A stretch of 64,000 nt of DNA. Origin: Mobula hypostoma (lineage: Eukaryota). Below the pieces are notes generated by a model. That model did not search any database, had not been told where the DNA came from, and saw only the letters and a program-made list of their open reading frames with translations. Where the stretch lies: the NCBI RefSeq assembly GCF_963921235.1, contig NC_086107.1, positions 93,498,001 through 93,562,000 on the forward strand, written 5' to 3'. Shown here piece after piece: positions 335 to 56,780 of this stretch (the first letter of the stretch is position 1; each line of letters begins with the position of its first letter). The translations under genes were made by a program, and so were the position numbers.

Positions 335-985
335 AGAGATTCTGCAGACGCTGGAAATCCTGAGCAACACACGCACAAAATGCTGGAGGAACTCAGCAGG
401 TCAGGCAGCATCTATGCAGGGGAATAAACAGTCGATATTTCAGGCTGAGACCCTTCGTCAGCACTGGAAAGGAAGGGGAAGAAGCCAGATTGAGAAATTG
501 GGGGGTGGGGGGGGAGGGAAAGAGTACGACCGTAGCTGACAACTGAAGGTGAGGGGAAAGTGGGTGGGGGGGAGGGAGGGAGGGAGGATGGAATAAGCAG
601 CTCTCCTTTTCTGTCTTTTGCATTCATAATTATGGCTTCTCTCTAACCCCTTCTCACCTGCCCATCACCTCCTTCTGGTGCCCCCCCTTTCCTTTCCCTC
701 CATGTTCCACTGTCCTCTTCTATCAAGTTTTTTTCCTCAGCTCTTTCCACTTATTACATCCCGGTTCTTACTTCATCCCCTCTCTCCCACCCACATTCTC
801 TCTCACCCGGTCTTGCCTATCACCTGCCAGTTCATATTCCACCCTCTCTCCCCATTTTCCTATTCCAGCTTCTGCCCCTTCTTTTCTAATGCTAATGAAG
901 GGTCTCAGCGTGAAACGACGACTGTTTGTTTCACTCTATAGATGTTGCCTGATCTGCTGAGTTCCTCCTGCATTTTGTATGTGCT
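335..985. mobile_element. Two opposed Penelope-like element (PLE) 3'-end/pLTR fragments (335-602 minus, 603-985 plus)
   Basis: Both carry the aaaatgctggaggaactcagcaggtcaggcagcatc motif or its complement plus the purine/pyrimidine tract seen after the GIY-YIG ORF at 17890-18270. Confidence 0.8.
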
Positions 986-2555: not shown

Positions 2556-3444
2556 CAACTAATCAGAGTGAATCAACCAATGATCTTGACTGTCCTAGAA
2601 TGAAGGAAACGTTTGCCTTTCTTGGATTGATTTCTCAGTTGGGTCTGTCATTTTATCTCGTACATCTCAATAAAATCAATTCTTAGATTTCAAAACAATA
2701 AATCCCAACTGGTTTAGACCATGATAAATAAATGGAAATTGATCAAGGACCAGGAAACAGAGAGTTCAAACCTTGGACCATAATTACAGGGTGGATATGA
2801 GGAGAAAGGTTTTATTGCTCAGAATAGTTGATCTGAAACTTAGTGGATAAAGGGTCAAGGAATGCTTTCAAAAGTGAATTATATAGACACTTGGGAGAGA
2901 ATAATTTTCAGAAGGTATGTAGGGAGAATGATAGGATTACTATATGGTGTTCTGGCGTAGGTGATGGTGCAAATGGCCTCAATGCAGTGACAGATTTATG
3001 GTCCTATAGCCATCACTGATTCCATTGGTAAGATTCTGAGAGGAGTTGATGAGGTGAAAGTGGAGAGGCTCTCTTCTCTTCTGTGACAGCCTGGAATCAG
3101 TATCTGGATGAGGGTCTGGTTGTTTACCATGAAGATGGGGAAAAGAAAACAGTGGACCCTCAGGACACTCTGCCCCTGGGGGTTGTGTATGTTGAGTGTG
3201 TTCATGGATTAAAATCTACAGAGGTTTGGACTTAAAGAGAACAAATATTGTATTAGGCAAGGTAATGTTTTGGAGTGGAGGGTCATGCTTCCATTGAAGA
3301 ACAGGGGAAGCTCAAGACGCCCATAATCTGCATCTAATCCTATCTCCTACGGTCCTGACAGTGTAGCACATGAGGACAGCAATCAAGGGCTATCGTCCTC
3401 ACGTACTCCTTGTGTTCCCCCTCTGAGATGAAAGGCCATTCCAG

Positions 3445-9124: not shown

Positions 9125-10370
9125 CCCTTTGTATGAGCCACTTCCATCCTGGGAAAGCATCTCAGGCTATCCACACTATCTGTGCCTCTTATTATAGATC
9201 ACTAATGTTATGCCAACTTCACAATCAATCTAACCCTTCCCTTCTACACAGCCCACAACCCTACAGTTTTCTTGCATTCTCCTGCACATCTAAGAGTCTC
9301 CTAAATGTCCGTGAGGTGTCAGCCTTTAACACCATTCCAGCAGGGTGTTCCCTACACCTGCCACTTTCTGTGTATTAAAAAAAACCTATCATTTCCTCCA
9401 ATCAGCTTTTTAGAAAAATCAGAAAAAAGATTAACTTAATAGGATAAAGGATTCCAGTTATAATTGGGCTCCATAGTGTCCTGTCAACTTTGGTGGAATG
9501 TTTTCTTGAAGGAACATCAGAATTATTTTCTCCTTTTGCTTAACACCCAACTCCTCCACTCTGGGTCACCTGACATCATCTCCTTGGCTTCTTCCCACAG
9601 CCAATCAGAACATGAACAGAATCAAGGCAATCAGGGTTTTTTTTTTCATTTGGCTGCCAATTGGCTACCGCCTTCTAATTATCCTCTACAATATGCTGAG
9701 AGCTAATGTTAAAAAGCAAACCAACTGTTTATTCAGATGCTTTAATTACTTTGTTCCAGGGTTGCTGGAGGTCAAGGGCAGAGCACTGATTTCCTCAGGA
9801 ACACGCATACAAAATGCTGGAGGAACTCAACAGATCAGGCAGCATCTATGGAGAGGAATAGAGACAACGTTACAGGCTCAGACCCTTCACCAGGACTGGA
9901 AAAGGAAGGGGGCAGAAGGTTGGAGTGGGAGGAGTACATATTAGCAGGTGATCAGCGGGACCAGGGGAGGGGGTATGATGTGAGGAGTTGGGAGGTGATG
10001 GGTGGAAACTAACAGGAGAGGAGAGTGGACCATGGGAGAAAGGGAAGGAGGAGGGGCACCAGAGGAACGTGATGGGCGGGTGAGAAGGTGTAAGAGGGGA
10101 GCCAGAATGAAAATGGGAAAAGGAAAACACTGAGTAGGGTGTAGCTTCTTATTTCATTCCCACCCTACCACCCACCTTTCCCCTCACCTGGTCTCCCGCA
10201 TCACCTGCCAGCCTGTAGTCCTTTCCCTACCCCATCTTATTCTGACTTCTGCCCCCCTTTTTTTTACCCAGTCCTGATGAAGGCTCTCCACCTGAAACAT
10301 CGGCTGTTTCTTCCCCTCCACAGATGCTGCCTGACCTGCTGAGTTCTTCCAGCATTTTGTGCATGCCGCT
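9125..10370 (-). repeat. Arm B of the inverted duplication (partner 335-1690)
   Basis: Reverse-complement match to arm A. ORF-track peptides HFHPGKESLAVHIIYASY (1501-1689 -) and HFHPGKASQAIHTICASY (9133-9378 +) correspond. Confidence 0.9.
10269..10306 (+). ncRNA. Minimal hammerhead ribozyme motif, near-intact
   Basis: CAGUC-CUGAUGA-AGG(cucucca)CCU-GAAA-CAUC-GGCUG; one CpG-decay mismatch in stem III. Confidence 0.6.
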
Positions 10371-16524: not shown

Positions 16525-18270
16525 AAACACAAGATTTGCAGACGCTGGAGGTCCAGAGTAACCAACTCAAAATGCTGGAGAAAATCAGCAGGTTGGGCAG
16601 TATCTATGGAAAAAAAAGGACAGTCAACGTTTTAGGCCGAACCCTTCAGCAGGACTGGAGGGAAAAAAAAGCTTGAGTAGACTTAAAAGGTAGGGGAGGG
16701 GAGAGAGAATCTCCAGGTGATAGGTGAAGCCTGGAGGGGGGGGGATGAAGTAAACAGCTGGGAATTTGATTGGTGAAAGAGACAGGAGGCCATGGAAGGA
16801 AAAAAAATAGGGGAGGAGCACTGGAGGAAGACGATGGGCAGGTAAGGAGATTAGGTGAGAGAGGTAAAAGGGGATGGGACATGGCGAAGGAGGGGGAGGT
16901 GTGGGGCCATTACCGGAAATTTGAGAACTCGATGTTCATGCCATCAGGTTGGAGGCTACCCAAACAGAATATAAGGTATTGTTCCTCCACTGTCTTTATC
17001 TCTGGAGACAGCTTACCCACTGATGTCTATTGGGAACCCACGAGCTTTCACAGCTATCTGGACTACACCTCATCCCACCTGCTACTTGTAAAAATGCCAT
17101 TTCCTTCTCTCAATTCCTCCGTCTCCACTGCATCTGCTCTCAGGATGAGGCTTTTCATTCTAGAAGGAAGGAAATGTCCCCCTTTTTCAAAGAAAGGGGC
17201 TTGCCTTCCTCCACCATCAACGCTGCCCTCAACCACATCTCTTCTATTTCACGCACGTCTGCTCTTACTCCGTCCTCCCACCACCCTACCAGGGATAGGG
17301 TTCCTCTTGCTCTCACCTATCACCCCACCATCCTCTGCATCCAGCACATAACCCTCCAAAGCTTCCGCCACCTGCAGTGGGCTCCCACCACCAAGCACAT
17401 CTTTCCCTTCCTCCTCGCTTTTGCAGGGATCGCACCCTATGCAACTCCCTTGTCCATTCGTTCCCTCCCCACTGATATCCCTCCTGGCACTTACCTTGCA
17501 AGTGGAAACAGTGCTATATCTGCTTCTACACCTCTTCCCTCACTACCATTCAGGGCCCTGAACAGTCCTTCCAGGTGAAGCGACACCTGTGAGTCTGTTG
17601 GGGTCATTTATTGTGTTCAGTGCTCCCATTGAGGCCTTCTGTATATTGGTGAGACTCAACGTAGATTGGGAGACCCCTTCACCGAGCATCTACACTCCAT
17701 CCTCCAGAACAAGCATGATCTCCCAGTGGCCACCCATTTTAATTCCACTTCCCATTCCCATTCCGATATGCCCATCCATGGCCTCCTCCACTGTCGTGAT
17801 AAGGTCACGCTTAGGTTGGAGAAACAATAGCTTATATTCCATTTGGGTAGCCTCCACCTGATGTCATGAACATTGATTTCTCAAACTTCCTGTAATGCCT
17901 CCCCTTCACCATTTCCCATCCCCCTTTCCTCTCTCACCTTATCTCCTTGCCCACCCATCGCTTCCCTCTAGTGCTCCTTGCCCCTTTTTCTTTCATCCAC
18001 GGCCTTCTGTCTCTTTCACCAATCAACTTCCCAGCTCTTTACTTCATCCCTCCCCCCTCCAGGTTTCACCCTTCATCTGGTGGTTCTCTCTCCCCTCCAC
18101 CCACCTTTTAAATCTACTCCTCAGCTTTTTATTCTCCAGTCCTGCCAAAGGGGTTTCAGCCTGAAACATCGGCTGTACCTTTTTCCACAGATGCTGCCTG
18201 ACCTGCTGAGTTCCTCCAGCATTGTGTGTGTTTTGCTCAGATTCCCAGCGTCTGCAGATTTTCTGTTGTT
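16525..18270 (+). mobile_element. 5'-truncated Penelope-like retroelement with an inverted copy of its own 3' end at the 5' side
   Basis: 16545-16990 is the reverse complement of ~17820-18265; the body between encodes PLE RT C-terminus and GIY-YIG. Confidence 0.85.
16990..17890 (+). pseudogene. Frameshifted Penelope RT thumb plus GIY-YIG endonuclease
   Basis: TDVY..PT..HSYLDYTSSH; CKNAISFSQFLRLHCICS; FFKERG; VPLALTYHP; VIYCVQCSH*GLLYIGET at ~17603-17656. Confidence 0.85.
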
Positions 18271-18816
18271 TGAGGTTAGGCAGAATCTAATGGAAGGGAA
18301 TAAATAGTCGATGTTTTGGGCTGAGACCCTTCATCATGAAGGGACCATCATCTTGACCTGAAACGTCGACTCTTTATTCCTCTCCATAGATGCTGCCTGA
18401 ACTGCGGAGTTCCTCCAGCAATTTGTGTGGATTGCTCTGGATTTCTACCATCTGCAGAATCTTTTCTGTTGATGATTCCCAAGCTATTTGAAAACACATC
18501 TTGGAGCACAGAAAGTGTTTGGCATGAGTAGAGAATGATCGGTACTCTAGACTGACAGTCACAGAACTTCAGCTGTCTTTAAAACTGCTCTCTCAACTCC
18601 TTCCTTTCTGGAAGATTTGGTGATGGTGATCCTCGTGGGTTGGCGGAGAGTTGGTAACAACTCAGTGGCAAAGGTTATAAGGGAACGCAGAATGGTGAAT
18701 GTGAAGCTGAAGAGCACGTGGAACTTCCTGTCACCATTTTGCTAAGAATATTCTGATGTGCTGTCCTGATGAAGGGTCTCAACCTGAAACGAAGACTCTA
18801 TAACCATAACTTGGAT

Positions 18817-19845: not shown

Positions 19846-20802
19846 CATCCTATAATTCAGAGTTAATTCGTTTTGTGGGGAGATGTCGGAGGTGTTTTTA
19901 TATAATATACAGAGTGATGAGTGCCTTGGACACACCACCAGAGGTGGAAGCTGAGACGATAGGGGTAATTAAGAGACTCTTAGATAGGCACATGGATATA
20001 AGAAAAATGGAGGGTTATGAATTGTGTAGGAGGGAAGGGTTAGATTGATGGTGGAGTAGATTTATATATTGTAAGCCAGCACAACTTCGTGGGCCGAAGG
20101 GCCAGCACTGTGCTGTGGTCCTCTATATGTAATGACATCTTCAGGTCCCATAATGAGGTGATCACTTTGGAAAGGATGTTGAAACTTTAATATGAAAGAA
20201 ATAATACAGAGGTGGCAGGGCCCAGCCGGTGACTCATCCCTCCTCATATGGCTGCCCCATGCGGTTTAAATTGTTAATTTCAACTTCTTTAGTTTAGGTT
20301 GTCTACTAGGTTGATAGTTTGACTGTACAGGTCAAGCAAGTGGTACCTATTTTCCACAGGAGGAATATCTGGGATGTGGGAGACCTGAATAAGGGTCTTG
20401 GCCCGAAACATCGATCGTTTATTTCCCTGCATAGATGCTTTAGACTTGCTGAGTTCCTCCAGTGTTTTGTGTGTGTTGCTCCAGGATATGGGAACCAATT
20501 CTACATTGAATGCAGACAGGAAACCAGGAAGACACTGCACACATGAGCACAAGAAGTTCTGCAGATGCCTTGAGCAGCACATACACAATGCTGGAGGAAC
20601 TCACCGGATCAGACGGCATCTGCGGTGGGGAATGAACGTACGACGTTTCAGGCTGAGATCTTTTGTCAGGACGGGAAAGAAAGAGAGCAGAAGCCAGAAT
20701 AAAAGACACAGGGGTTCCGTAGATGCTGAAAATCTTGAGCAACACACACAAAATGGCGGAATAACTCCAGCAGGTCAGACGGCATCTATGGAGGGGAATA
20801 AA

Positions 20803-20840
20803 CAGTCAATGTTTCAGGCTCAGATCCTTCGTCAGGACTG
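20803..20840 (-). ncRNA. Minimal hammerhead ribozyme motif, near-intact
   Basis: Minus strand CAGUC-CUGACGA-AGG(aucugag)CCU-GAAA-CAUU-GACUG. Confidence 0.55.
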
Positions 20841-22434
20841 TAAAGGGAGAGGGCAGAAGCCAGAATAATAAGATGGGTTGGTCTCATCGAATGAGATGTT
20901 ACTGAACACAGAAGTCCTGGAAAATCCCAGTAGGGCGGGCAGCTTCTGTGGAAGGAGAAACAATTAATGACTTTTCGTCAACGCTGAGAGAGGGAAAACA
21001 TGTTGATTTATGAAGCAGCAGTAGCAGTGAACAGTGCACGGGAAAAACAGGCTTTGTCTGTAACAGAGTGAAATGGTGGCGACATTAAATGGATAGGAGG
21101 TTAATTAGAACTTTTACAACATCTGCAGTTGTTTTGATTTTCAAGTAACGTGCTAAACGACTCGATAAAATGGGATTTCAATTTGGCCAGCTTACTTAAA
21201 ACTGCCCCTACTTTGTGCTGTTGTAGCTATCAATTGAAAACTATATAAGAAGATAACTAGTAATTAAGATATAAGATTATCTTTACTTGTCAAATGTGCT
21301 TCCAAACGTAGTGAAATGTGTCATTTGCGTCAGTGACCAGGATGTGGGGGTGGATCTTGCAAGTGTTGCCGCGCATCAGACGCCAACACAGCATGCCCAC
21401 ACTTGCTAATTCTAACCTGTACTGTATGGCTTCGGAAAGTGTGAGCACCCAGAGGAAACCCCCGCAGTCACGGGGAGAATGTTCAAACTCCTTTCAATCG
21501 CGGGAAATGATCCTCGATGTTGCAAAGTATTACACGGACCACCAAGTGACCGTGCCTATCAGGTGCACCAAGACGCAGTGACAAGTATCATTTTGCATGT
21601 CGTCCAAACAGATCATTTCAAGCATAAGTACCTCAAGGTATTAACAGGGGACAATAAAATAATGTGCAGAACATAGTGTTAGAACTACAGAGAAAGTGAA
21701 GTGCAGACAGACAAATAAGGTCCACGATGAGGGGGATTGTGAAGTCAAGTGTCCACCTCTATCCTACGAGAGGACTGTTCAAGCGTCTGATAGCAGTGGG
21801 ATAGAAGCTGTCCAAAGCTGGTGTTCACCTCGCTGCTCAGCAAGGTTTACTTATCTCTCAGCTGAACTGATGCTGACGCCTGCAACTAACATGCTCCTGG
21901 ATTGGCTGCGGTGATGACTGGCTTCGTGGCTATGAATTTTGTTTTTCCTGAACTTTAGTACTGAATGTTATTTGCTTCCTTTTTATTGTTTGCACAATCT
22001 GCTTCTACATTGGGTGTTTGATGGCCTTTTTTTAATTGGTTCTATTGGATTTCTTGTTTTGGGGCTGCCTGTAAGGAGATGGATCTCAAAGTTGTATATA
22101 GTATACATACTTTGATAATACATGTACTTTGAACTTTGGTGTTACAATGTTCGCAATCGTGTGTATCATTTGCCGAGTGGGAGAAGAGAGGATGCAGGGC
22201 AGGAGGGGTCTTTGATAATGCTGGCTGCTTTCCTGAGGCGTTGGAATTGTAGACAGGGTCAATGGAGGGGAGGGCATTTCTGTGATGTGCTCAGCTGTGT
22301 CCACAACTCTGCAGTTTCTGGCGGTCACATATAGAGCGGTTGTCGTAGCAAGCTGCGATGTATCATGATAGGATGCCTTCTATGGTCTATCTATGAAAGT
22401 GGAGAGAGTCACTGGAGACATGCCAAATTTCCTT

Positions 22435-24639: not shown

Positions 24640-25275
24640 TAAACATGAGATTCTGTAGATGCTAGAAACCCAGAGCAACACACACAAAATGCTGGAGGAA
24701 CTCAGCAGGTTAGGCAGCATCTATGGAGGAGAATAAGCAGCTGACGTTTTGGCCAAAGCCCTTCACCAGGATCGGTAAGGAAGGGGGGAGAAGCCAGAGT
24801 AAAGATATGGGGGGAGGACGAGGATGACTAGATTGGTGAAGCCAGGTGAAGGGGAGGATGGGTGGCAGAGGAGAGATGAAATGAGAAGCTGAAAGGTGAT
24901 TGGTGGGAAAGGTCAAGGGCTGAAGAAGGAGGAATCTGATAGGAGAGGAGAGTGGACATGGGAGAAAGTGAAGGAGGAGGAGCACCAGAGGGAGGTGATG
25001 GGCAGGTGAGGAGAAGAGAAAGGTTGAGAGGGTTACCAGGATGGGGAATGACACAGGACAGAAGGGGAAGGAGGGGGGGAGATATTACTAGAAATTAGAG
25101 AAATTGATGTTCTTTCCATCGGGTTGGAAGCTAGTCAGATGGAATATGAGGCGTTGCTCCTCCAGTCTGATGGTAGCCTCATTGTGACAGGAGAGAAGAC
25201 TGAGGACCAACATGTCAGAATGAAAATAGGAAGTCCAATTGAAAAGAGTGGCCACTAAGAAATCCTGCCTTTTGT
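24640..25275 (-). mobile_element. PLE 3' fragment with GIY-YIG C-terminal remnant
   Basis: Minus ORF ...RLEEQRLIFHLTSFQPDGKNINFSNF followed by the pLTR motif. Similar copies at 10660-11100, 23620-24020, 47860-48510, 56075-56580. Confidence 0.8.
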
Positions 25276-27125
25276 GGTTGCTTGACAAACGTCGGGAAAT
25301 ATGATTATATTAAATCATAAAGAATATTAAGTAAAATTTGCATACTTTCAACTCATGTGGGACAACAATAGATCCCAATTTCAAGGAGGTATGGTATTAT
25401 TTCTCTACTGTTGTGGAACTTTGGGAAGTTAAGAAAGATGTGCATTTACATAAACTCTGGCACTATCCATTTCAAGATGCCCTGAGTTGTTTGTAAATGA
25501 GGTCTTTTTCTAGTTTGGTCATTGTTGTAAAATGGGGAAAGATGGTGACCATTTGAGCACATCAAGTGGTTGTAAACTGCAATAAAAGCAAAAAAAATTA
25601 CAGAAATACTCAGCAGGTCAGGCAGCATCTGTGGAAAGATAAGCCAAGTTAACACTTTATTGACTTGAAACGCTAATTCGGTTTCTCCCTCCACAGATGT
25701 TGGCTGACCTGCCAAGTGTTTCCAGTGTTTTCTGATTTTATTTCAGATTTACAGCATCTGCAGTTTCTTTTTCCATTTTGATTCCCATGAACAGCAATGG
25801 AGTAACAACTAGACCATGGGCTGGGCTGCAACGATAACTCGTCAGTGCTCCCATGGAGACGTGAGGCAGCTTTAGTGTGTGGACCAGCACGTTCTGCAGA
25901 CTGCGTCCTGTGCGCCACAGTGCAGACATGTGAAATGTGCCGCAGACCTACAATTGACCCCTTGTTCCATGCTGAACACCGCACTCATTTTAACAGTGTT
26001 CCATGACATCCAAGGCAGAGGAGCAGGATGCATTTCGTATCTGGTCCTTCAACTTGTCCAAAACTGTCTCTTTTATGGAGCTTATGGAGTTCAGATCTCC
26101 TTCTGGCCCAACTCATCCATGCCACCAAGATGCCTCGTCCAAACTGGTCCTGTTTGCCAGTGTTTGACCCATATCCCTCTAAACCATAGGTTCCCAATCT
26201 GGGGTCTATGCTTGTATTTGTCCACGGCATTAAAAAAAGTTATGAACCACTGCTCCAAATCTTTGCAATCCTTGTACCTATCCAGGTGTCTTTTAAAAGT
26301 TGTCATTGTACCAACCTCAACCACTTCCTCTGGAAGCTTGCTCCTTTCTTCTTGTTAAATCTTTCCCTCTTAAAACTGTGTTCTCTAGTTCTTGAATCCC
26401 CAGTCTTGGGGAAAATGACTGAATGCATTCACCTCTGTCTATCTTGAATGGGATTGAAGATGGCATTAGTTATAGAGCACTACAGCACAAAAATGGGCCC
26501 TTTGGCCCATCTAATCTGTGCTGAACTGTTATTCTGTCTAGTCCAATCAACCTACACCTGGACCATAAGAAAGTAAGCTTTGCCAAGATTTTTGTCTCAG
26601 CCAATATTTATACTTTAATTAAAGTAATTTGTTATAAATAGTTTATTTTTAACCTTTTTTTAATAATTTACATTCTTTTTTTAAACAGTGATTATTCCCT
26701 GCTGGTACTAGAGCTCAGCTGTAACATCAAGAGCTCTGAATATTACTCACCTTCCGTTTGACTTTGTCGTCACTTTGCCCGCAAAGGCAAGAGGAGTGAG
26801 TGGTGGGTGGGATTATGGCCAATTAATCTTCCTTAATGATGTTCCTTGAGAGTTAAATTTGGTCAAAGTTCAAAGTAAGTTTATTGCCAATGTACGACTA
26901 TGTCGCCAACTACCCTGAGGTCTGTTTTTTTGCAGCCATTTACAGAAAATAAAAAACTACAATAGAATCGATTTTTTAAAAAACTACACACACAGATGGA
27001 CAAGTAACCAATGTGCAAAAGAAGACAAATTGTGCAAATAATAAAAAAGTAAATAAATAAATCAAAAGTTCAAAGGAAATTTGATATCTATGTATATGTC
27101 ACCATATATGGTACTATCCTGAAAT

Positions 27126-33243: not shown

Positions 33244-33889
33244 TGAATCCCCTCTCTTCCCGGGCGTCTCAAGAAACAGCTCGTTAGCCCTTGCTGGCAG
33301 TCTCCCAACTCAGCGCCGAGAAACCCACCACACACTGCATACAATTAAAGGAAGTATATTTATGAATATTAACAACTAAAGAGTTATTAAAGAAAATAAA
33401 GGGAAAAAACAAAAAAAAGCACATTATAATTAAACAGTCATGTGTGCACAGGTTGGTGCTCAAAACTTCCACAAGTCCTGACGAAGGGTCTCGGCCCGAA
33501 ACGTCGACTGTACCTCTTCCTATAGATGCTGCCTGGCCTGCTGCGTTCACCAGCATTTTTTGTGCGTGTTGTTCCAAAAGTCATATTCACCGATCCTCAG
33601 TCGACTCCCACACCTTGCTCCATCGAATCACAGTCCCCACCGGATCGAATCCTACAGCCAATTCTCTCCAGCATCTTCTCTCTTCATCTCCCACTGAACC
33701 AAGACAAAGGTTCATACTGGTGTCAGGCACAAAAAAAACCCCGCTTCCCCAGCCTTCTCTCCTGATTGGATGGCCCAGGTTCCTAAGCACCCATTATCTG
33801 TAACAATAGCCCAAATACTGCTTCTGCAGAAAGACCATTGCATGAAACACCCTACAACGTTAGCTGTGAAATCTTTATCAGGTGTTACA
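33244..33889 (-). mobile_element. Solo LTR (Gypsy- or ERV1-type)
   Basis: TG...CA termini; 4-bp TSD TTAG at 33240-33243 and 33890-33893; minus strand starts tgtaacacc and has CCAAT and a polyA-like signal followed by GT-rich sequence. Confidence 0.7.
33474..33509 (+). ncRNA. Intact minimal type I hammerhead ribozyme (PLE-associated)
   Basis: AGUC-CUGACGA-A-GGG(ucucgg)CCC-GAAA-CGUC^GACU: both core boxes, stem I AGUC/GACU, stem II GGG/CCC, palindromic ACGU stem III; predicted cleavage after C33505. Confidence 0.8.
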
Positions 33890-37580: not shown

Positions 37581-37745
37581 AAGCAACACCCACAAAAAAT
37601 GCTGGTGAACACAGCAGGCCAGGCAGCATCTATAGGAAGAGGTACAGTCGATGTTTCGGGCTGGGACCCAAACGTCAACTGTACCTCTTCCTATAGATGC
37701 TGCCTGGCCTGCTGTGTTCACCAGCATTTTTTGTGTGTGTTGCTT
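37581..37745. mobile_element. Near-perfect fold-back PLE-end hairpin
   Basis: aagcaacac...gctggtgaacacagcaggccaggcagcatctataggaagaggtacagt followed by its near-exact reverse complement. Confidence 0.9.
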
Positions 37746-37777
37746 GAATTTCCAGCATCTGTAGATTTCCTCATGTC

Positions 37778-38560: not shown

Positions 38561-40439
38561 AAAGGGAAATTTATTATTAAAGCATGCATATGTTATCATA
38601 TACTACCTTGAGATTCATTTTCTTGCAGGCGTTTACAGGAAATAAAGAAATACAATAGAATTTATGAACAAAGACAGTCAAACAACCAGCAACCAAATGT
38701 GCAGATAGATAGAGAGCGAGAGCGAGAGAGAGAGATAGAATAACTATACATGCTACGTACATAATGGAACACAAAGGAATTTTCTCCCATCTGACAAATT
38801 TATAATATGATCTGGAAACACAGACGGTGCAATAAAAACTGCTCCTCTCATCTAACAGCATAATATATTAAAGCTAATTTGCTTTTCTATTCAACAATGA
38901 AAGAATCCCACCATTGCACCATATCGATATATACTTGTAAATGTTTTATACAGTACATGTCATGGATGTCAGTCCTACAGTGACTGAGTAATAGGCATCC
39001 CTCCGGTTCTTTGAGATGTACAAACAGATGACAAAAGAAAGCAAGTATTCACTGCAACATGGTGGTGCAGTGGGGGGGCCTTTGTTCTTGGAAGTTGTAG
39101 GTAATCTGTGTGGGTGAGAGATGTATAGAATTGTTTCCAAATCAAAATGAATGCAATAACAAGCACTAGAAGAAGAGTTGCTGGTATTTAGTGAAAATAT
39201 GATAAATCTGGCAACTACCGCTTCCCTATTCATTGTTGCTACACTGTTGGCAACAGACCCTAAAGTGTCTCAATCCCAACCTTGGGAATTCTTTGTTCAG
39301 GTTTCTTTCTGTATTTCTTACTCCCCCTTTAAAATGTGGCATGGTACCGTAACAGTTGGCATAACGCTTTACAGCACTAGTGATTCCATGTTCAATTCCT
39401 GCCCCTATCTGTAAGGAGTTGCACATTCTCCAGTGACCACAAAGTTTCCTCCAAGTGCTCCAGTTTCCTCCCACTTTGCAAAGACGTAGGGGTGAGGGTT
39501 GGAGAGTTGTGAACAGGCTATGCGGGCACCTGAAACACGGCTACGCTTGCGGGCTGCCGCCAGCACATCTTCAAACTGTGTCGGTCATTGGCGTAGATGA
39601 CGCATTTCACTCTATATTTCTATGTACCTGTGACAGAAAAATAAAAGATCATCGGAGCCAAGAACATGACAGTTCCAGATATGAACATCACCACTAGACC
39701 AAATTCATTTTCAGATTCATTTTCCCTCCTAGCCTGCTGAATTCCTCCAGCATTTTGTGTGTTGCTCCAGATTTCCAGCACCGGCTGTCTCTCTTGTGTT
39801 GCCGGATTTAGAAGAGCAGAGATCCTTTGGAAGGTTATTGGGTTGAAGGTATTTCCAGAGTAGAGAGAGCTAAGGCCGTGGAGAGATGCGAACAACAAGA
39901 ACTTTAAAAATCAAACCTGTCAGGGGGGGCCAAAGTCAGCCAGTGAGTGCAGGGATGAATGTTGGGTAAAGGATGGGATGTCATCAGCAGAGGACTGGGA
40001 GATGAGAGGATGGCCTGGAGAATATCGGAACAATCCAATATCAGAGTGGAAATTTATCATCAGTCCTTTGAGGGTTTCTGCTTTGAGAACGGGGCTATAA
40101 TAAGCTGCCGAGGATAGTCTGGGAAATGCTTCATCTGGCACAAACCTGATGCCAAACCAGATGAAGTCCTTGAAGTAACACTGCTGTATTTGTGCTAAGC
40201 CTCCGCTGTGCTCAACCTGAAGCATACTCAATTCCAACACGGGGAAAGGAGGAAACAACAGGAATTCTGCAGATGCTGGAAATTCAAGCAACACACATCA
40301 AAGTTGCTGGTGAACGCAGCAGGCCAGGCAACATCTCTAGGAAGAGGTGTAGTCGACGTTTCAGGCCGAGACCCTTCGTCAGAAGTCCTGTTAATATTGT
40401 TTAAAATTTTGCAAGGCATGGCGGCGTGAAGATGGTACA

Positions 40440-41784: not shown

Positions 41785-42529
41785 CGAATCAGAATCAGAA
41801 TCCTTTATTATCGTCAAGTCTGTGGACACATACAGGGAATTTCATGCTGGTTTCCCTGAGCTCCCGCTGTTCGGAATCAAAAAACAAACAAAACAATAGT
41901 GAAAATAATCGTGAACTATATACAATGAGGTATACCTGTGTATGTACAGGTGGACTTGGTTTATAATAGACTAAAATTCAAGTGTTCATAAGACTGATGG
42001 CATACTGAAAGAAACTGTTCTTGTACCTATTTGTCCTGGCATACAGTGATCTAAAGCGCCTCCCAGAAGGAAGAAGTTGGAACAGGTGATGTCCGGGGTG
42101 TGATGGGTCTACAATAATACCGCTTGCTCGCTTCCTGAATGTAGATGCATATAAGTCCTGGATCGAGGGCAGCTTCACACCAATAATCCTCTCCGCAGCC
42201 CTGATGGTTCTTTGGAGTCTATTCTTGTCTTCTTTGGTAGCCGTTCCAAACCAGACAGTGATGGATGAACAGAGAACAGACTGGATTATTCCTGAATAGA
42301 ATTGAATCAGCAGCTCCTGAGGCAGGTTGTACTTCCCGAGTTGACGTAGGAAATACAACCTCTGCTGAGCCTTTTTGATAAGAGTGTCCGCGTTGGGTGT
42401 CCACTTCAGGTCCTGGGAGATTGTGACACCCAGAAACTTGAAGTTCTCCACAGTAGACACAATACTGTTGAGTATAGTGAGTGGGGGGAATATTAGGGGG
42501 CTCCTCCTGAAAATCCACTGTCATCTCCA
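41785..42529 (-). mobile_element. Young 5'-truncated Rex1/Babar LINE
   Basis: Uninterrupted 160-aa ORF (VENFKFLGVTI...KKAQQRLYFLRQL...LLPSGRRFRS...KNSFF), (ctgatt)n tail, 9-bp TSD cagtatctc at 41776-41784 and 42530-42538. Confidence 0.9.
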
Positions 42530-44672: not shown

Positions 44673-44895
44673 TATGTGTCACCATATACTACCTTGAAGT
44701 TCTTTTTTTTTGCAGGCATTGCAGGAAAATAAAGAAATACAATATTTATAAAAAATTATGCATGAACAAAGCCTGGCAGACAACAAATGTGCAAAGAAGA
44801 CAAATTGTGCAAACGAATGATTACAAACAAACTTTTAAAAGATAGCAAGGGGTCTAATTTTCAGAGTCGAAGTCCACCTTTTGGTTAAACTCAAA

Positions 44896-45810
44896 ACAAA
44901 AGATAGGAGGCATTGTGGATAATGAAGTAGGTTTTCAAAGCTTGCAGAGAGATTTAGGCCAGTTAGAAGAGTGGGCTGAAAGATGGCAGATGGAGTTTAA
45001 TGCTGAAAAATGTGAGGTGCTACATTTTGGTAGGACTAATCAAAATAGGACATACGTGGTAAATGGTAGGGCATTGAAGAATGCAGTAGAACAGAGGGAT
45101 CTGGGAATAATGGTGCATAGTTCCCTGAAGGTGGAATTTCATGTGGATAGGGTGGTGAAGAAAGCTTTTGGTATGCTGGCCTTTAATAATCAGAGCATTG
45201 AGTATAGGAGTTGGGATGTAATGCTGAAACTGTATAAGGCATTGGTAAGGCCAAATTTGGAGTATTGTGTACAGTTCTGGTCACCGAATTATGGGAAAGA
45301 TGTCAACAAAATTGAGAGAGTACAAAGGAGGTTTACTAAAATGTTGCCTGGGTTTCATCACCTAAGTTACAGAGAAAGGTTGAACAAGTTAGATCTTTAT
45401 TCTTTGGAGCGTAGAAGGTTGAGAGGGGAGTTGATAGAGGTATTTAAAATTATGAGGGGGATTGATAGAGTTGACGTGGATAGGCTTTTTGCATTGAGAG
45501 TGGAGGAGATTCAAACAAGAGGACATGAATTGAGAGGTAAAGGGCAAAAGTTTAGGGGTAACATGAGGGGGAACTTCTTTACTCAGAGAGTGGTGGCTGT
45601 GTGGAACGAGCTTCCAGCAGAAGTAGTTGAGGCAGGTTTGATGTTGTCGTTTAAAGTTAAATTGGATAGATATATGGACAGGAAGGGAATGGAGGGTTAT
45701 GGACCGAGTGCAGGTTGGTGGGACTAGGTGAGAGTAGGAGTTCGGCAGGGGCTAGAAGGGCCGGGATGGCCTGTTTCCGTGCTGTAATTGTTGTATGGTT
45801 ATATATGGTT
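44896..45810 (+). mobile_element. Young 5'-truncated CR1 LINE (uninterrupted 270-aa ORF2 C-terminus, 44915-45727)
   Basis: LQRDL..LEEWAERWQMEFNAEKCEVLHFG...LYKALVRPNLEYCVQFWSP...FFTQRVVAVWNELP; (tatggtt)-type tail. Confidence 0.92.
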
Positions 45811-46482: not shown

Positions 46483-49155
46483 CAATTATTCCTCACTGGG
46501 AACAAAGAAAAATCCCAATTTATTCTCCCCAAGTTGCCATCAGCTCCTTCCAAATTCTAACACTCACCAATATATTTTGGAAAATTTACAGAGGCCAATT
46601 AATCTATCAATTTGCACGTGTTTGATATGTGGTGGAGGGGAGCTGGAGCAACCGGAGTGAAATCTTTAAAGGCACAAGGAGAACAGGCAAACTCCACACA
46701 GGCAGTACCAAATATCAGGGACAAAACCAATTCACTGGAGCCCTGAGGTGGAATTTCTACCCAGTTTTCTGAAATTATTTATTATTGTCTCATGTACTGA
46801 GATACAGTGAAAAGCTTGTCCTTCAATGGCCATTGACTTACCTTCTCTAACGTGTGTGGATGGGAACAAGTATATGATGCTTATTCCCATCTCTGTAAGT
46901 CACATTGTAGAATACTATTGGCCAGTTATTGAAGATTATAAATGAAGTTCAAACATGAGAAAATCCGCAGATGCTGGAAATCCAAGCAACACACACAAAA
47001 TGCTGGAGGAACTCTGTATCTGTGGAAACGAGCAAACTGTTAACTCTTTTCCAGGGATGCTGCCTGGCCTGCTGAGCTCCTCCTGCATTTTGTGTGTGTG
47101 GTTCTAAATGAAGTTATTTGCAAGCTACAACCAAACCACTCTATTACAAACTGCACCACATCCATTTAGGGAAATTGTTACAGGGTTCCATTCCCAGAGG
47201 GAAAAAAAAATCATATTTATATGGAGCCATTTGCAACCTGATGATTTTCCAAAGCACTTTGTAACCATTGAGGTATTCCTGAAGTGTATTCACAGTTGAT
47301 GCAAACATAGAACATTATGACATAGCACACGGCCTTTGGCCCATGATGTCGTGCTGACCTTTTAACCTACTCTAAGATCATTCTAATGTTTCCTTCCCAC
47401 ACAACTCTTTATTTTTCATTCACAGACCATAGAATGTACAGCAGAGAACAGGCTCTTCGACCTACAATGTTGTGCCGACATTTGAACCTACTCCAATGTC
47501 AATCTATCCCTTCCCTCCAAAATAGCCCTCCATTTTTTTTCATCCATGTGTTTATCTAAGAGTTTCTTAAATGTCCCCCAACCACCACCCCGGCAGCATG
47601 TTCCACACACCCACCACTCACAGTAGCCTCCCTATACCTCCCTTCAACCACCTTAAAATTGTGCCCCTCATGTTAGCCATTTCTGTACGGAGAAAAGCCT
47701 CTGGCTGTTGATTTAATCTGTGCCTGTTATCCTCTTGTACATCTCCATCAAGTCACCTCTCATTCTCCTTCACTCCAGAATGAAACCCTCCTACACTGCT
47801 CAACCTATCCTCATAAGGAATACTCTCGAATCCAGGCAATATGACACAGAAAAGAAACAAACAAAGGAAAACCTGCAGATGCTGGAAATCCAGGCAACAC
47901 ACACAAAATGCTGGAGGAACTCAGCAGGCCAGGCAGCATCTATGGTAAAGAGTACAGTCGATGTTTCAGGCCGAGACCCTTCGGCAGGACTGGAGAAAAA
48001 AAGATGAGGAATAAATTTTAAAGCTGGGGGAAGGGAGAGAGAAACACAAGGTGATGGGAGAAACCGGAAGGGGGAGGAATGAAGTAAAGAGTTGAGAAGT
48101 TGATAGGTGAAAGAGATACAGGGCTAGAGAAGGGGGACTCTATTAGGAGAACACAGAAGGCCATGGAAGAAAGAAAAGGGGGAGGAGCACCAGAGGGAGG
48201 CAGGCAAGGAGATAAAGTGAGGGAGGGAAAAGGGGATGGGGAATGGTGAAGGAGGTGGGGGCATTACCAGAAGTTTGAGAAATCGATGTTCATGCCATCA
48301 GGTTGGAAGCTACTCAGACGGAATCTAAGGTGTTGTTCCTCGCACGTGAGCATGGCCTCATCACAACAGATTGGGAATGGGAAGTGGAATTAAAAAGGCT
48401 GGCCACTGGGAGATCCCGTTTTTTTCTGGCAGACAGAGCGTAGGTGCTTGGCGAAGCGGTCTCTCAATCTATGTTGGGTCTCACTGATATACAGGAGCCC
48501 ACACCAGGATATGACACATAAGTTAATTTTAAAGTTCAAAGTAAATTTATTATCAAAATACATATAGACCCATGAGATTCAATAAATCCATAACTGAATG
48601 AAAGCCATAATAGAATTAATGAAAGACCGCACCCACTTGCTCATTCAACCAGAGTGCAAAAGATAACAAACTTCGCAAGTACAAGAAGAAAGAATAATAA
48701 TAAATAAATAAGCAATAAATATTGAAAACATGAAACAGAGTCCTTGAAACTAAGTCCATTGGTTGTGGGAACAGTTCAATGATGGGGGAGTTGAAGTTGA
48801 GTGAAGTTATCCCATTTGGTACAAGCGCCTGAAGGTTTACTTTGCAAGATTCTGTAAACATTAATGTTAAAATGCCAATCTGTTTGAAGGTACTGGCCAT
48901 GGAATAAATGGAGGCCAGCACACTGGGGATAATTCCTCAACCCTTCTGAGATATGGTGCCAGTTCTATTATGTCCAGCCTAGATAGCTGCTAACCCAGAT
49001 GAATGGGCTGCCATTCATAGTTGAGTGGGTTGCTCATTGCTTGTGAACGGCCTTGTTTCAAACCTTAAATCACTACCACGTGCAGATTCCCCTTAAGTTC
49101 CCTCCACTGCATTTCCCACATTATATTCCATCTGCCTACTCTTTAAGCCCATCTA

Positions 49156-50728: not shown

Positions 50729-53644
50729 CAGTGTTTCCCAACCTCCTGTAGCCCAAAGTCCCCCTAAAGCACTTTCATATTTGCCAACACCCACCCCCCA
50801 GAGCACCTTCATGCTTGCCAACGCCCCTCTTAGACACAATATACTTTCTGGCACCCCCATAGTGTAAAAACATGTCTACCGTATGCTAGCGTGAGAAAAA
50901 TGATTCCGCTTTAAATTCTTATTTGTCTTTAAACTGAGCTTACACAGGACGCACCGATGCGCTGTACAGCCGTTTCAATATCAATGTGATCCTTAAGCTT
51001 GATGGCTTTTAGCAAGAGTTGAAATATCTGGTTCAAGTTGTGACAACAAAAGCCTTAAGTCCCCATGCGTAACAATGGCCAAGCGGTTTCTGTTTTTCTT
51101 AAGTATGTGGCTCACTGCACTGAAGCCTCTTTCAACAAGGTAGGAAGATGGAAATACAATGAAGAGCAGTTTGGCTCTTCTCCAAAGACCAAGAAACTTC
51201 ATAGCCACATATCACAAAAGCAAATATTTCTGAAAAGCATTTTTGCTTCTTCATCATTCTGAATTTTGATAACCTTTTTCTTGCAAGCTTTCTTCCTGTT
51301 CTTCCACCTTGCAAAGAAATGGGTTAATTGCCCAGTCTGGAATTTTCAAATTGTTCAAATCTTTGAATCGATTCTGAAAATCCTTCTTCAGTGACTGCAG
51401 GTGTAAGCTGTAGTCTTGCAAATCACCTTCTGTGAAAGAGAGTGCCATACTTTCCATGCAGGGAAACCATGAGAACATCATTCTCCCAATGTTTTGCTTA
51501 TATATTTCCAATTTTTGATAAAAGTTGACACTGCACTTTTTGCCTACATTAAGTTGAAATTCTCAACCTGCAGTTTCTTATGTAGAATGTTCATTTTGTC
51601 ATACAGATCAGTCAGGTACGCCACATCTCCACAAGAAGTTCAATCTTGTTTCCCAGAACTTGTAGACCTTGAGCAAAAATTGAACCACAGTGTCAAAAAG
51701 ATCAAAGAAACATTTTAAGCAGCAGCCTTTTGACAGCCAAAGCACTACAGTGTGAAGAAGCAAATGTTCAAACTCTTCATCGTTGTCTTGGCATAACTGG
51801 CGAAATATTCTGCCATTTATTGGATGAGCTTTAATTTTGTTTATAGCAGATATTACAAGAGTCATGCTTGAAAAAATACACTGGCTGAGGTTTTTGGTTG
51901 CGAGATGTTAACGATGAATTACATAATTGATTACAAACAGACTTGGAATTTCTTTTTTCATAAATGCTACTAAACCAGCGAGGCGACCTGTCATATGTGG
52001 TGCTCCATCTGTTGTAGAAGAAATCATGTTCCTAATCAGAATACTTTTATCTTCAATATACATTTTGTGCTTTTTGTAGATTGAAATTTGTTTTTAACAT
52101 TTTACCAAAGAGAATTTTTTCATAGACTTTTCCATTTTTGATAAACTGTACATATGCCATTAGCAATTCCTTGTTGTCTCACACAGTTGACTTATCCAGT
52201 TGTATCCCAAATTCTGTTTTTTGTAACTCTGTGTATAGTTGATACTCAGTGTCTTCACTCATTTCATCAATATGACAAGCTATTGAGTTATTACTCAGAG
52301 GAATTGATTTTAAAATACTGGAATCCATTTTGAGAACAGTGGTGAGCACTTCTGATACAGAAGGCATTATTACTCTTTCACCAGATGTATGAGATTTTCC
52401 ACACCTTGCTGTCATTTTGGAAATGTTATAAGAAGCAATGAGACCACTGTCAAGGTCATTTTCAGCTTTCTTAACAAATGACTCGAATGTGCAATGCTTT
52501 TCAAATGCTGCTTTCATCTTCTGGAACTGAGTAATACCATAAGTAGTCTTTTCAGGGTATCTTTTATGGAAGTGTTCCTGCAATCTGGATGGTTTCATGG
52601 CTTCATTAGACAGTACAGTATTACAAATTACACACATGGGGTGTCGCTGATCTGATAGGAATGGAATAAAACCATACTCCATGAATGTAACATTGTATTG
52701 ATGCACTTTCTGCAGTTTCTGTTTCTTAACAGGATTAGAATTCAAGACTTCACTGCCTTCAGACTCATAGAAATCACATCATACAGCTTTATCCATCATT
52801 AACGGGGCTAAATTAAAATTAAAAATTAACTCAAACTGGGAATGCCTATCAGATATTGATGACAGCAGCGAGTTGACACGAATGGAACGATGGTAGCAAC
52901 ACACAAAGGTACGGCGAGGCGAAGATGAAGGCGATCACAACAGCGAAAATTACATTGACAAGGATTCAGACTGAAATCTGAATGTTAGTCAAGATAGAGC
53001 TGGTGTTCAGCAAGCTTCCTTTATACTCTTCTGGCTAGCACAATTGACCAATCACATAAGAGTCTCATAGTCCCAAAGATGGTTCTTGACTGCATATATG
53101 AAGCCCGGGTTACTTTGAACATCTCGAAAGGAATCCTCGGGGTTAGCTGGTTCACTGAGTGGCTCTATTTTACCGTTTGGTTCTGGCCAGCGCTGTATCT
53201 GTTTGTGTGACCTGTTTTCCATAGATCTGTGGAGAAAGTTGAGAGGGTGTACTTGATTTACCAACTGTTAAATTGCATGAACTCGTTCCGTGCCGCGACT
53301 CAAGGGGAACTGTTGGGCACCATGGCGGCTAATTTATGCATCCCAATAATATCTGCTTGGTTGGTAAGGTCAGATGAGATTACCGCGTTTCAGACGCATT
53401 GTGACGAGTGCTCACCGATTGTAGAGCTATGGTTCTTCCTGTGTTCCAGTGCCTCATCCTTCTTTTTGGACGTGACTGCTCTACTAACAGTCGGTCAATT
53501 CTCGTGCCTCAAGTTAGGATGCCACTTACCGCCCCCCTCCAGGAATCGAACACACCCCTGATGACTTCTACTTCCCCTAACTCCCCCTTAGGACACATAA
53601 CCACCCCCTTGGGGGTGCGATACCACCCCCATTGGGAATCACTG
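50729..53644 (-). mobile_element. Full-length decayed hAT-Buster/Charlie DNA transposon
   Basis: TIRs cagtgtttcccaa / ttgggaatcactg; 8-bp TSD ggttagac (50721-50728) / ggttcgac (53645-53652) with central TA. Confidence 0.9.
50993..52799 (-). pseudogene. Disrupted Buster-type (ZBED5/SCAND3-like) hAT transposase
   Basis: BED finger YGFI..PMCVICNTVLSNEAMKPSRLQEH; FGIQLDKST catalytic region; LLLHTVVLWLSKG; C-terminal FPSSYLVERGFS...DLRLLLSQLEPDI; several stops and frameshifts. Confidence 0.9.
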
Positions 53645-54722: not shown

Positions 54723-56780
54723 TAAAATGTGATTAATGTAGATGGGCAAAAATGTCAGCATGGAGGTGATGGGCTGAAGGGCCTGTTTCTGTGCAGGACA
54801 ACTTCAGTCTTCACAATCAGGTGGGAGCGAGGCCAGCGGCTCCTGTCTGTATCATTCAGAGTTGTGAGTGAAATACTCCAGGACACGGTTTCTGTGTGAA
54901 TGATAAACACAATTTAGTCTGCAGATCACAAAATACTGGAGGAGCTCAGCAAGTCAGGCAGCATTTGTGAAGGTGAATAAATATCTGATGCTTTGGACTG
55001 AGACCGTTCTTCAGGACTCAGTTTGAGTGAGCTTGATGAAAGCATAGGCACAGAGTCAGCGGAGGTTACAAACTTCTCCCTCAACTTGTTGGTAAGTACC
55101 TCCACACACATAACACAGCACAGAATCTAGGCATCTGTCCAGCACGCTAAGAGGGTGCTGCTCTGTTATCAGTGAGATGATAAACAAATGGACCTACTGC
55201 CCCTAGTCAAGGTCAACTTTATTGTCGCACGGGCACAACAAAAAACTTACAGCGACATCACAGGCACAAAGCGCCAGAGACACAGCGTTCACGAGTAGCA
55301 TGAACATAAATTACGCAAAGCTAGATACGAAAAAAATGCAATCAGAACAAAAGTAAAACACACACTGTAGTGCAAGGTGTCTTAGTGTTCATCTACTTAG
55401 GTAGCGATTGGGGTTGTGCTGGTTCGCTCAAGAACCAAATGGTTAAAGGGAAGTAGCTGTTGCCTGAACTTGGTTCTGAACCTGAATAAGCAGCATTCAC
55501 AAGGGAAAAAAAACATAGACAAATTATATATCCTTTTTACATGAAAGAAAACAAGAAGACCAAATAAAGTCTGTTTTAGTGCAAAATAGTCACAGTGATC
55601 AGAGCTCTGCCAGTTGGTTCAGGAACCAGATGGTTGAAGGGAAGCAGCTGGTCCCATGGGAATTCAGGCTCAGTTCCTCCTGCCCAGTGGTAGCCGTGAG
55701 AAGATGGCATGGCCTGGATGGTGGGCCCTGATTCCTTCCTGCCTTCACATGGTCCATATCCCCCCATTCCTGATATATTCATGAGTCTGTCTGAAAGCCT
55801 CGTATGTGCCACTATCATATCTGCTTCCACCACCACCGCTGACAACCCGTTCCAGGCATCTACCACTCTCTGTGTAAAACAACTGGTCTCACGCATCTCT
55901 GTTAAACTTTCTCCCCAATTCTAAATGCATGTCCTCTGGTATTTGATGTCTCTACCCTGGGAAATACGTTCTGTCTATTCTATCTACATTTCTCATTAAC
56001 TTCATCAAATCTCCCGTCAGCCTCCAGATTAAACAAAGCCAAGTTTCTCCAACCTCTCTTTATTGTTCATTTCTTTTAAATGGAAAGGACGGGGGCAGAA
56101 GCCAGAATAACAAGGTGTGGGAGCGGTGGGGGAGGTGGAACACCAGCTGGCAGGTGATAAGTGAGACCAGGTGGGGGAGGGAATGAAGTAAGAAGTTGGG
56201 AGGTGATAGGTGGAAGGGGCTGAAGAAGAAGGTACGTGATAGGAGAAGAGAGTGGACCATGGGAGAAAAGGAAGGAGGAGGGGGCACCAGAGGGAAGGGA
56301 TGAGCAGGCGAGGAGAAGAGAAGGGGTGGGAGGGGAATCAGAATGGGGAATGGAAGGAGAGAAGGAGGAGGGTCGAGAAATTACCAGAGGTTAGCAGAAT
56401 CAAAGTTCATGCCATCAGGTTGGAGGCTACGCAGACAGAATGTAAGATTTGTCCCCATACTGTGGCCTCATCATGGCGGTAGAGGTGATTATGGACCAAC
56501 ATGTCAGAAGGGGAATGGAACATTGAATTGAAGTGGGTGGACACCAGGAGATCTTGAGGCGGATGGAGCAGAGATGCTCTGTCCCCCTCCATCTTCTTAT
56601 TCTGGACTTCTGTCTTCTTCCTTTCTGGTCCAGATGACGGGTCTCAACCGGAAATGTCAACTGTTCATACCCCTCCTTAGATGCTGCTTGACCTGCTGAG
56701 CTCCTCCAGGATTTCGTCTGTGTTGCTCAAGATTTCCAGCATCTGGAGAATCTCTTGTGTTGAAAGTTTTACGTAGCTGT

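What the first reader, a model, noticed from the sequence alone, without database searches (positions are those of the whole stretch)
33474..33509. The dominant repeat carries a minimal hammerhead ribozyme; one copy is intact
Seen: AGUC CUGACGA A GGG-ucucgg-CCC GAAA CGUC GACU. It has both catalytic boxes, a 4-bp stem I (5-bp CAGUC/GACUG in the family consensus), a 3-bp stem II, an extra A after A9 and a loop-less palindromic ACGU stem III. Decayed versions recur through the window (429-466, 10269-10306, 20803-20840, 40351-40386 and more), and the motif follows the GIY-YIG ORF at 18137. Established: Penelope-like elements carry minimal hammerheads that are thought to cleave as dimers. Inference: this genome is seeded with very many potentially self-cleaving motifs that could cut intronic or lncRNA transcripts if two copies pair.
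Basis: partly seen in the sequence, partly recalled or inferred. Interest (0 to 1): 0.7.

Follow-up and report, generated by a model that had tools for sequence, protein, structure and literature searches.

The report
Penelope-element minimal hammerhead relic
This is a real, intact-looking copy of the small self-cutting RNA motif that Penelope-like jumping genes are already known to carry, sitting in a short dead fragment of such an element; the other copies nearby are decaying like ordinary junk DNA and nothing here shows that they cut host RNAs.

Summary
The motif is there as written (33474-33509, cut site after C33505). It is the only loop-less hit of a hammerhead descriptor in the window (shuffle mean 0.02). 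It lies in a 94-bp, 5'-truncated fragment of the 3' pseudo-LTR of a Penelope-like element (Neptune-type linker; relatives in rays). An 11-bp target-site duplication flanks it and includes the 5' arm of stem I. The family has 46 copies in the window (7.3% of bases), with PLE hallmarks: GIY-YIG remnants upstream, head-to-head inversions and an optional 3' tail. Copies decay like unselected DNA. Core non-CpG sites diverge 13.5% against 11.4% downstream (p=0.26), CpG sites 36-47%, and 2 copies keep core plus CG palindrome where 1.35 are expected. The host-RNA-cleavage idea is unsupported. The monomer misfolds, the nearest same-strand partner is about 15 kb away, antisense copies 2-7 kb away would pair far more strongly, and no host exon was found. 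The kind is described (PMC4209133; PMC11167929), and this scan already logged it in this genome and others. Side finding: the copies attached to three of the ORF remnants belong to an A6C-core subfamily.

The parts
33474..33509 (+). Minimal type I hammerhead motif: stem I 33474-77/33506-09, CUGACGA 33478-84, extra A 33485, stem II 33486-89/33494-97, GAAA 33498-501, palindrome ACGU 33501-04, C17 33505
33478..33571 (+). 94-bp insertion: 5'-truncated 3' pLTR fragment of a Penelope-like element, short 3'-end class (no tail)
33467..33477 (+). Left copy of an 11-bp target-site duplication (1 mismatch); its last 4 nt are the 5' arm of stem I and also match the element's own sequence (microhomology)
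   Evidence: empty paralogous host-repeat sites
33572..33582 (+). Right copy of the target-site duplication
17078..17893 (+). Decayed C-terminal part of the PLE ORF (C-terminal RT region, CX4CxxC linker, GIY-YIG endonuclease), with stops and frameshifts
   Evidence: 60% identity to P0002, E 3e-94
18135..18275 (+). 3' pLTR copy about 250 nt after the ORF remnant; A6C-subfamily hammerhead, damaged; carries the tail
16526..16990 (-). Inverted, more truncated arm of the same insertion (ORF end, UTR, A6C hammerhead, tail)
47858..48509 (-). Independent truncated PLE copy: endonuclease remnant plus A6C hammerhead plus tail, 13-bp TSD-like repeat
24640..25276 (-). Truncated PLE copy of a second subfamily: endonuclease remnant plus decayed hammerhead plus tail
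37581..37770 (.). Head-to-head inverted unit of the same young subfamily as 33474 (92-94% identical); its minus arm is antisense to the intact copy, 4.1 kb away
40255..40384 (-). Same-subfamily copy with core and palindrome intact but the stem I 5' arm lost; opposite strand
335..469 (-). Copy with 12/12 core and an AUAU palindrome (double CpG decay) but a G-G mismatch at the first stem I pair

Best explanation
The motif is the minimal hammerhead of a ray-lineage Penelope-like retroelement (probably Neptune clade). It was copied passively into this site as part of a 94-bp, 5'-truncated insertion with an 11-bp target-site duplication. SHOWN by sequence: hammerhead anatomy, position about 250 nt behind the GIY-YIG ORF end in longer copies, TSD, inverted units, two 3'-end classes, CpG-driven decay without core conservation. 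INFERRED from the literature: in an active element the motif sits at the pLTR-ORF junction and can cut after GUC only as a double hammerhead (two ACGU palindromes pair) and/or with help from the element's own RT-endonuclease protein. Reverse transcription starts a short way downstream of it, at two sites (hence the optional tail), and usually aborts within a few hundred nt, so the genome fills with short hammerhead-bearing fragments. Once inserted they are dead. This copy is complete because it is young, and as an isolated monomer it is most likely silent.
For: Descriptor hit beyond chance. PLE protein relatives and 5 ORF remnants, 4 of them 240-290 nt upstream of a same-strand family copy. 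3' ends are bimodal, 18 of 46 at model position 93-115 and 23 of 46 at 133-145 with none between, matching the 30-40 bp PLE tail (PMC8557442, PMC11167929 passages). Short head-to-head units. Core non-CpG divergence 44/326 vs 204/1796 downstream, p=0.26. Core CpG 60/166 vs loop CpG 32/73, p=0.31. Expected 1.35 copies with intact core plus CG palindrome, 2 seen. Pair fates in 278 cells: 164 same, 40 wobble, 6 compensatory, 68 broken. 36 of 46 copies start upstream of the cleavage site and only 1 of 46 at position 35-39, so templates were mostly uncut, as for PAc (PMC11167929). The monomer folds with G5-G8 paired to C15.2-C17 (P about 0.98-1.0). In other animals' DNA the same core is flanked by covarying stem I arms: 53 of 90 with at least 4 bp, against 10.6 under permutation.
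Against: No cleavage assay. Nearest-neighbour energies ignore tertiary and protein stabilisation. The neutrality test rests on 46 copies in one window and mixes subfamilies, so it would miss selection on a small minority of copies. Pfam GIY-YIG scores are below the curated cut-off. No full-length element or RT core is in the window, so the clade call rests on one linker motif.
Confidence: 0.87

Rival explanations
1. One reading: the many copies act as a genome-wide set of ribozymes that cut host intronic or lncRNA transcripts whenever two copies pair, in cis or in trans.
For: The family is very abundant: 46 copies in 64 kb, and 54,029 contig records of one DNA run lay on the 661-nt stretch. 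About 1 in 30 copies is complete. Half-competent 'substrate' partners exist (6 other copies). Dimer cleavage of this class is published, though low (PMC4209133).
Against: No selection on the core. The nearest same-strand partners are 14.7-15.0 kb away. The double hammerhead scores -14.7 kcal/mol, against 2 x -11.9 for misfolded monomers and -32.1 for a non-catalytic cofold. Antisense copies within 1.9-6.8 kb give -124 to -177 kcal/mol duplexes. No host exon was found. The Anolis PLE hammerhead cut only with protein and left no RNA-seq ends (PMC11167929).
Confidence: 0.06
2. The short copies are a self-propagating non-autonomous family (retrozyme- or SINE-like) that is processed by its own hammerhead and mobilised in trans.
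For: A young subfamily of short copies (33474, 37581-37770, 40384) has no ORF-bearing member in the window. Retrozymes derive from PLE pLTRs and were found in one chondrichthyan (bioRxiv 10.64898/2026.07.22.740005, passages).
Against: 5' ends are scattered from about -265 to +100, not fixed, and do not pile up at the cleavage site. No tandem array of intact units was seen; the one head-to-tail pair (20552-20842) is damaged. Longer copies run into the ORF.
Confidence: 0.06
3. Chance resemblance to a hammerhead.
For: No Rfam match. The folding z-score of the 36-mer is only -0.96. Few compensatory changes inside the window family.
Against: Shuffle mean 0.02. All published min-HHR traits are present in the family majority state. 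The expected position behind GIY-YIG remnants. Stem I covariation in other animals' PLE-linked copies of the same core.
Confidence: 0.01

Closest known systems
Minimal hammerheads (min-HHR) in the pLTRs of metazoan Penelope-like elements (Cervera and De la Pena 2014, PMC4209133; parts 1-2 of 4 read, 2 supplementary files searched, 1 not searchable)
   Same: Type I core, 4-5 bp helix I, unpaired nucleotide between 9 and 10.1, G10.1-C11.1 pair, palindromic 15.2-16.2 with no loop III; mostly single motifs in truncated copies; pairs on opposite strands close together; thousands per genome (about 4,000 in coelacanth, about 9,000 in Xenopus).
   Different: Helix II is short here (3-4 bp, against 7-8 in the Schistosoma families). 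The host is a cartilaginous fish, which the parts and supplements seen do not name. Density is very high (46 relics per 64 kb). An A6C-core subfamily is present; the parts read describe a U3-A8 variant.
PAc (Poseidon from Anolis carolinensis) hammerhead (Frangieh et al. 2024, PMC11167929; parts 1-2 of 4 read)
   Same: Hammerhead near the 3' end of inserted copies; two reverse-transcription start sites giving an optional 30-40 bp tail; uncut RNA is the main template.
   Different: PAc is Penelope/Poseidon clade; this element has the CX2-5CxxC linker of Neptune/Nematis. The ORF start relative to the hammerhead was not determined here.
Non-LTR retrozymes (PMC7229834, passages; bioRxiv 10.64898/2026.07.22.740005, part 1 and passages)
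   Same: Type I hammerhead in a short non-coding repeat related to PLE pLTRs.
   Different: Retrozymes are defined by tandem units that each hold a complete hammerhead; here copies are dispersed, variably truncated and inverted.

Membership tests
PLE minimal hammerhead (min-HHR) | Core CUGANGA / GAAA / UH | tested here: met
   (12/12 at 33474)
PLE minimal hammerhead (min-HHR) | Helix I 4-5 bp, helix II with G10.1-C11.1, extra nucleotide after A9 | tested here: met
PLE minimal hammerhead (min-HHR) | Palindromic 15.2-16.2, no loop III | tested here: met
   ACGU at 33501-33504
PLE minimal hammerhead (min-HHR) | Located in the pLTR of a PLE | tested here: met
   Family copies follow GIY-YIG remnants at 17078-17893, 16886-16990, 25058-25276 and 48258-48509; the 33474 copy itself is a solo fragment
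PLE minimal hammerhead (min-HHR) | Covariation of stems within the family | tested here: inconclusive
   6 compensatory of 278 cells in the window (dead copies of few sources). Covariation is clear only across other animals' families, which are related to each other and were selected by the core pattern
PLE minimal hammerhead (min-HHR) | Self-cleavage as a dimer or with protein | not testable with these tools
   needs a bench assay
EN+ Penelope-like element | C-terminal GIY-YIG endonuclease behind RT | tested here: met
   GVIYC...LYIGET; 70-78% identity to ray proteins; Pfam GIY-YIG matched but below cut-off
EN+ Penelope-like element | 5' truncation, inverted arms, optional 30-40 bp tail | tested here: met
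EN+ Penelope-like element | Telomerase-like RT core and full pLTR-ORF-pLTR unit | tested here: inconclusive
   Not in the window; only the C-terminal ~290 aa align; no genome held
Neptune/Nematis clade | CX2-5CxxC linker between RT and EN (PMC8557442) | tested here: met
   CX4CxxC in P0002-P0003 and in the window remnant
Neptune/Nematis clade | RT phylogeny | not tested
   no RT core available
Non-LTR retrozyme | At least two consecutive tandem units with complete hammerheads | tested here: not met
   none in this window

The most novel reading that the evidence does not exclude
If about one complete copy per 64 kb is typical, a ray genome holds tens of thousands of cleavage-competent half-sites plus far more 'substrate-only' copies. 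Transcripts could then be cut in trans, by RNA dimerisation or with help from the element's own protein when it is expressed, giving a retroelement-coupled RNA decay or 3'-end-forming route at genome scale. A smaller and likelier novelty (about 0.35): one source lineage kept transposing with an A6C catalytic core, and the ribozyme's own self-complementary arms act as the hotspot where insertions truncate or fold back.
Probability: 0.06. Interest if true: 0.65.

Novelty: new member of a known kind. Interest (0 to 1): 0.17.

Why it matters
As it stands it is a correct catch of a known motif in a lineage (rays) for which my searches found no paper, at unusually high density. Its modest value is as a fossil record. 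So many insertions let one ask whether PLE templates are cut before reverse transcription (here mostly not) and whether the catalytic core is needed for mobility (an A6C lineage suggests it may not be); both are open questions in PLE biology. It would matter much more if intact copies were shown to cut host RNA in vivo, for which there is no evidence here.

Tried and rejected
Rfam at gathering score: 0 matches. No whole genome is held, so no genome-wide count or consensus could be made. Viral contigs: 0 matches to the core pattern. Sequencing runs: no RNA holder listed, which is no evidence on expression. All four laid runs are contigs, so they cannot show RNA ends; no listed piece spans the whole stretch, and the variant table was cut before the hammerhead positions. 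The 4,104 records of the 'RNA?' run are not taken as evidence of transcription. Host gene: 25 long ORFs plus all 235 unmasked stop-free segments of 45 aa or more were scanned against Pfam. A sub-threshold nicastrin hit at 2999-3208 was rejected because it found no support in the protein or PDB searches. Short exons or exons without a Pfam domain would be missed. The idea that copies begin at the cleavage site (fossil of cut templates) was rejected: 1 of 46 by alignment, or one inverted unit by eye. Folding z-score was uninformative. Lunse et al. (PMC5785218) is not held, so it is known only through the review passage in PMC6765202; it, and file 1 of the PMC4209133 supplement, may already list elasmobranch or A6C examples. 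An earlier-findings search by sequence returned nothing. The TSD search had no formal null; 6-9 bp matches appear at most units and are treated as chance.

Full report
Observation. A descriptor for type I hammerheads run on both strands gave two hits, and this is the only one with a loop-less stem III; 100 dinucleotide shuffles gave 0.02 such hits on average. Stem II is three G-C pairs plus a U-G pair closing a four-base loop. Rfam has no model that reaches its threshold anywhere in the window. An iterated profile search finds 46 copies of the repeat, 21 on + and 25 on -, covering about 7.3% of the window.

What it belongs to. A decayed ORF at about 17078-17893 encodes a C-terminal RT region, a CX4CxxC linker and a GIY-YIG domain, with four stops in the last 100 codons examined and frameshifts. 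Its three database relatives are proteins from Mobula hypostoma and Hypanus sabinus, 70-78% identical, so the host is probably a ray (inference). With these as queries, further remnants appear at 16886-16990, 25058-25276, 48258-48509 and 56399-56604; four of the five remnants are followed 240-290 nt downstream by a same-strand family copy. The linker is the mark of Neptune/Nematis as opposed to Penelope/Poseidon (PMC8557442, passages); Pfam's GIY-YIG model matches only below its cut-off. The repeat has the other PLE hallmarks named in that paper. 5' ends are variable. There are head-to-head inverted units. And there are two 3'-end classes about 35 nt apart: 18 of 46 copies end at model position 93-115, 23 at 133-145, none between, and 5 earlier. 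That is the optional tail, which Frangieh et al. trace to two internal RT start sites (PMC11167929).

Anatomy of the intact copy. The insertion is 33478-33571 (94 bp), between two 11-bp repeats with one mismatch at 33467-33477 and 33572-33582. Contigs of two DNA runs show other copies of the host repeat running from about 33440-33448 straight into 33572, without the insert. Repeats of 10-18 bp flank 9 of 29 units examined, three of them explained by tail, tandem or microsatellite similarity; no formal null was run. The 5' arm of stem I is thus the end of the duplicated target, which happens to match the element's own sequence; microhomology at the truncation point is the likely cause (inference). 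The copy is 89-94% identical to those at 37581-37770 and 40255-40384 and only about 72% identical to the median copy, so it belongs to a young subfamily.

Are the copies selected? Not detectably. Non-CpG core positions differ from the family reference in 44 of 326 cells (13.5%), against 204 of 1796 (11.4%) in the downstream body (p=0.26; three subfamily-diagnostic columns left out, 12.0% with them). The hammerhead has four CpGs in or next to the core and loop. These differ in 36-47% of cells, with core CpGs (60/166) no better kept than the loop CpG (32/73, p=0.31). Independent decay predicts 1.35 copies with intact core and CG palindrome; 2 are seen. Of 278 pair cells, 68 are broken and 6 compensated. 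The window's CpG observed/expected ratio is 0.34, in line with methylation-driven decay. The motif class itself is real. Among 90 distinct matches of the same core in other animals' DNA, 53 have at least 4 bp of stem I, which the pattern did not ask for, against 10.6 with permuted partners (maximum 23 in 2000). 35 of the 122 loci also match the PLE protein. Those sequences are related to each other, so this is not a probability.

Could it cut a host transcript? As a monomer the RNA folds stems I and II but pairs G5-A6-C7-G8 with C15.2-G16.2-U16.1-C17, closing the core (-11.9 kcal/mol, pair probabilities 0.98-1.0). The double hammerhead of two such copies scores -14.7, worse than two misfolded monomers or a non-catalytic cofold (-32.1); these energies ignore tertiary and protein effects. 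The nearest same-strand copies that could serve as substrate or enzyme half lie 15.0 and 14.7 kb away. Four opposite-strand copies within 1.9-6.8 kb would give duplexes of -124 to -177 kcal/mol in the same transcript. No host exon was identified, and the run search gave no usable evidence on expression. 36 of 46 copies begin upstream of the cleavage site and 1 at it, so most templates were uncut there. This agrees with the Anolis element, where uncut RNA is the dominant template, the ribozyme cuts only with the element's protein, and RNA-seq showed no ends at the site (PMC11167929). Cervera and De la Pena saw no monomer cleavage and low dimer cleavage (PMC4209133).

Comparison and novelty. Every sequence trait listed for min-HHRs in PMC4209133 is met, and that paper already reports thousands of mostly solitary motifs in vertebrate genomes. 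Searches combining Penelope, hammerhead and shark, ray, cartilaginous fish or elasmobranch found no paper on this lineage. Lunse et al. and one supplement file could not be seen, and a 2026 preprint reports retrozymes in one chondrichthyan. The scan's earlier notes describe the same family three times in this genome and similar ones elsewhere; one gives a genome-wide count above 150,000, which I could not check. The verdict is a new member of a known kind. Two side observations deserve a genome-wide look: the A6C-core subfamily attached to ORF remnants (A6C strongly lowers Mg2+ activity in another hammerhead, PMC7151607), and the clustering of truncation and inversion points inside the motif. 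Both rest on few copies.

Verdict. Observation confirmed; identification right; the host-RNA-cleavage inference unsupported but not bench-tested. Interest 0.17.

Noticed in passing
window 16652 (-), 18142 (+), 47987 (-), 31558 (-): Four copies from three independent insertions read CUGC at positions 3-6 (A6C) and share a distinct upstream sequence, so the source element carried a variant core. In a different hammerhead, A6C cut the Mg2+ rate more than 10,000-fold relative to Mn2+ (PMC7151607, passages). None of the 3 papers found by the A6C search concerns PLEs by its title and abstract start; passages were read for 2 of them.
   Followed up: partly
window 9893, 24769, 30884, 30923, 32137: Five copies have G at position 6. 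They do not separate clearly from A6 copies by upstream sequence, so this may be a second variant lineage or recurrent transitions.
   Followed up: partly
window 3955/3969, 16391/16409, 18335/18339, 25658/25662, 30884/30923, 37658/37682, 47026/47048, 59761/59765: Short head-to-head units whose junctions mostly fall inside the hammerhead, by eye at its palindrome or stem arms. In each, only one arm carries the tail. 5' starts: 12 in positions 9-39 against 8 in 40-100 (binomial p=0.014; arms are not independent and detection is length-biased).
   Followed up: partly
window 650, 10087, 11012, 24009, 35289: Several copies of the second subfamily begin at nearly the same point, about 240 nt upstream of the hammerhead. 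This could be a pLTR transcription start, or only an alignment edge in pyrimidine-rich sequence.
   Followed up: no
window 33515-33535 and equivalent positions: About 20 nt after the cut site the family has a pyrimidine run, then YAG, then ATG, like a 3' splice site followed by a start codon. PLEs carry pLTR introns (PMC4209133); whether this is the ORF start is untested.
   Followed up: no
window 33244-33860: The flanks are themselves a moderately repeated element; other copies in two DNA runs lack the 94-bp insert.
   Followed up: partly
window 44858-45724 (+), 41981-42520 (-), 51257-52778 (-): Remnants of other transposons: CR1-like LINE C-terminus, a second LINE C-terminus (Pfam ALKBH8_N hit) and a hAT-like transposase. 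The labels CR1 and hAT are recalled from the translations, not from a call.
   Followed up: no
L003 / L004 (one metagenome contig): Two hammerhead motifs 2,522 bp apart with a PLE-like protein match between them (47% identity to P0002), i.e. a probable pLTR-ORF-pLTR unit from another animal.
   Followed up: no
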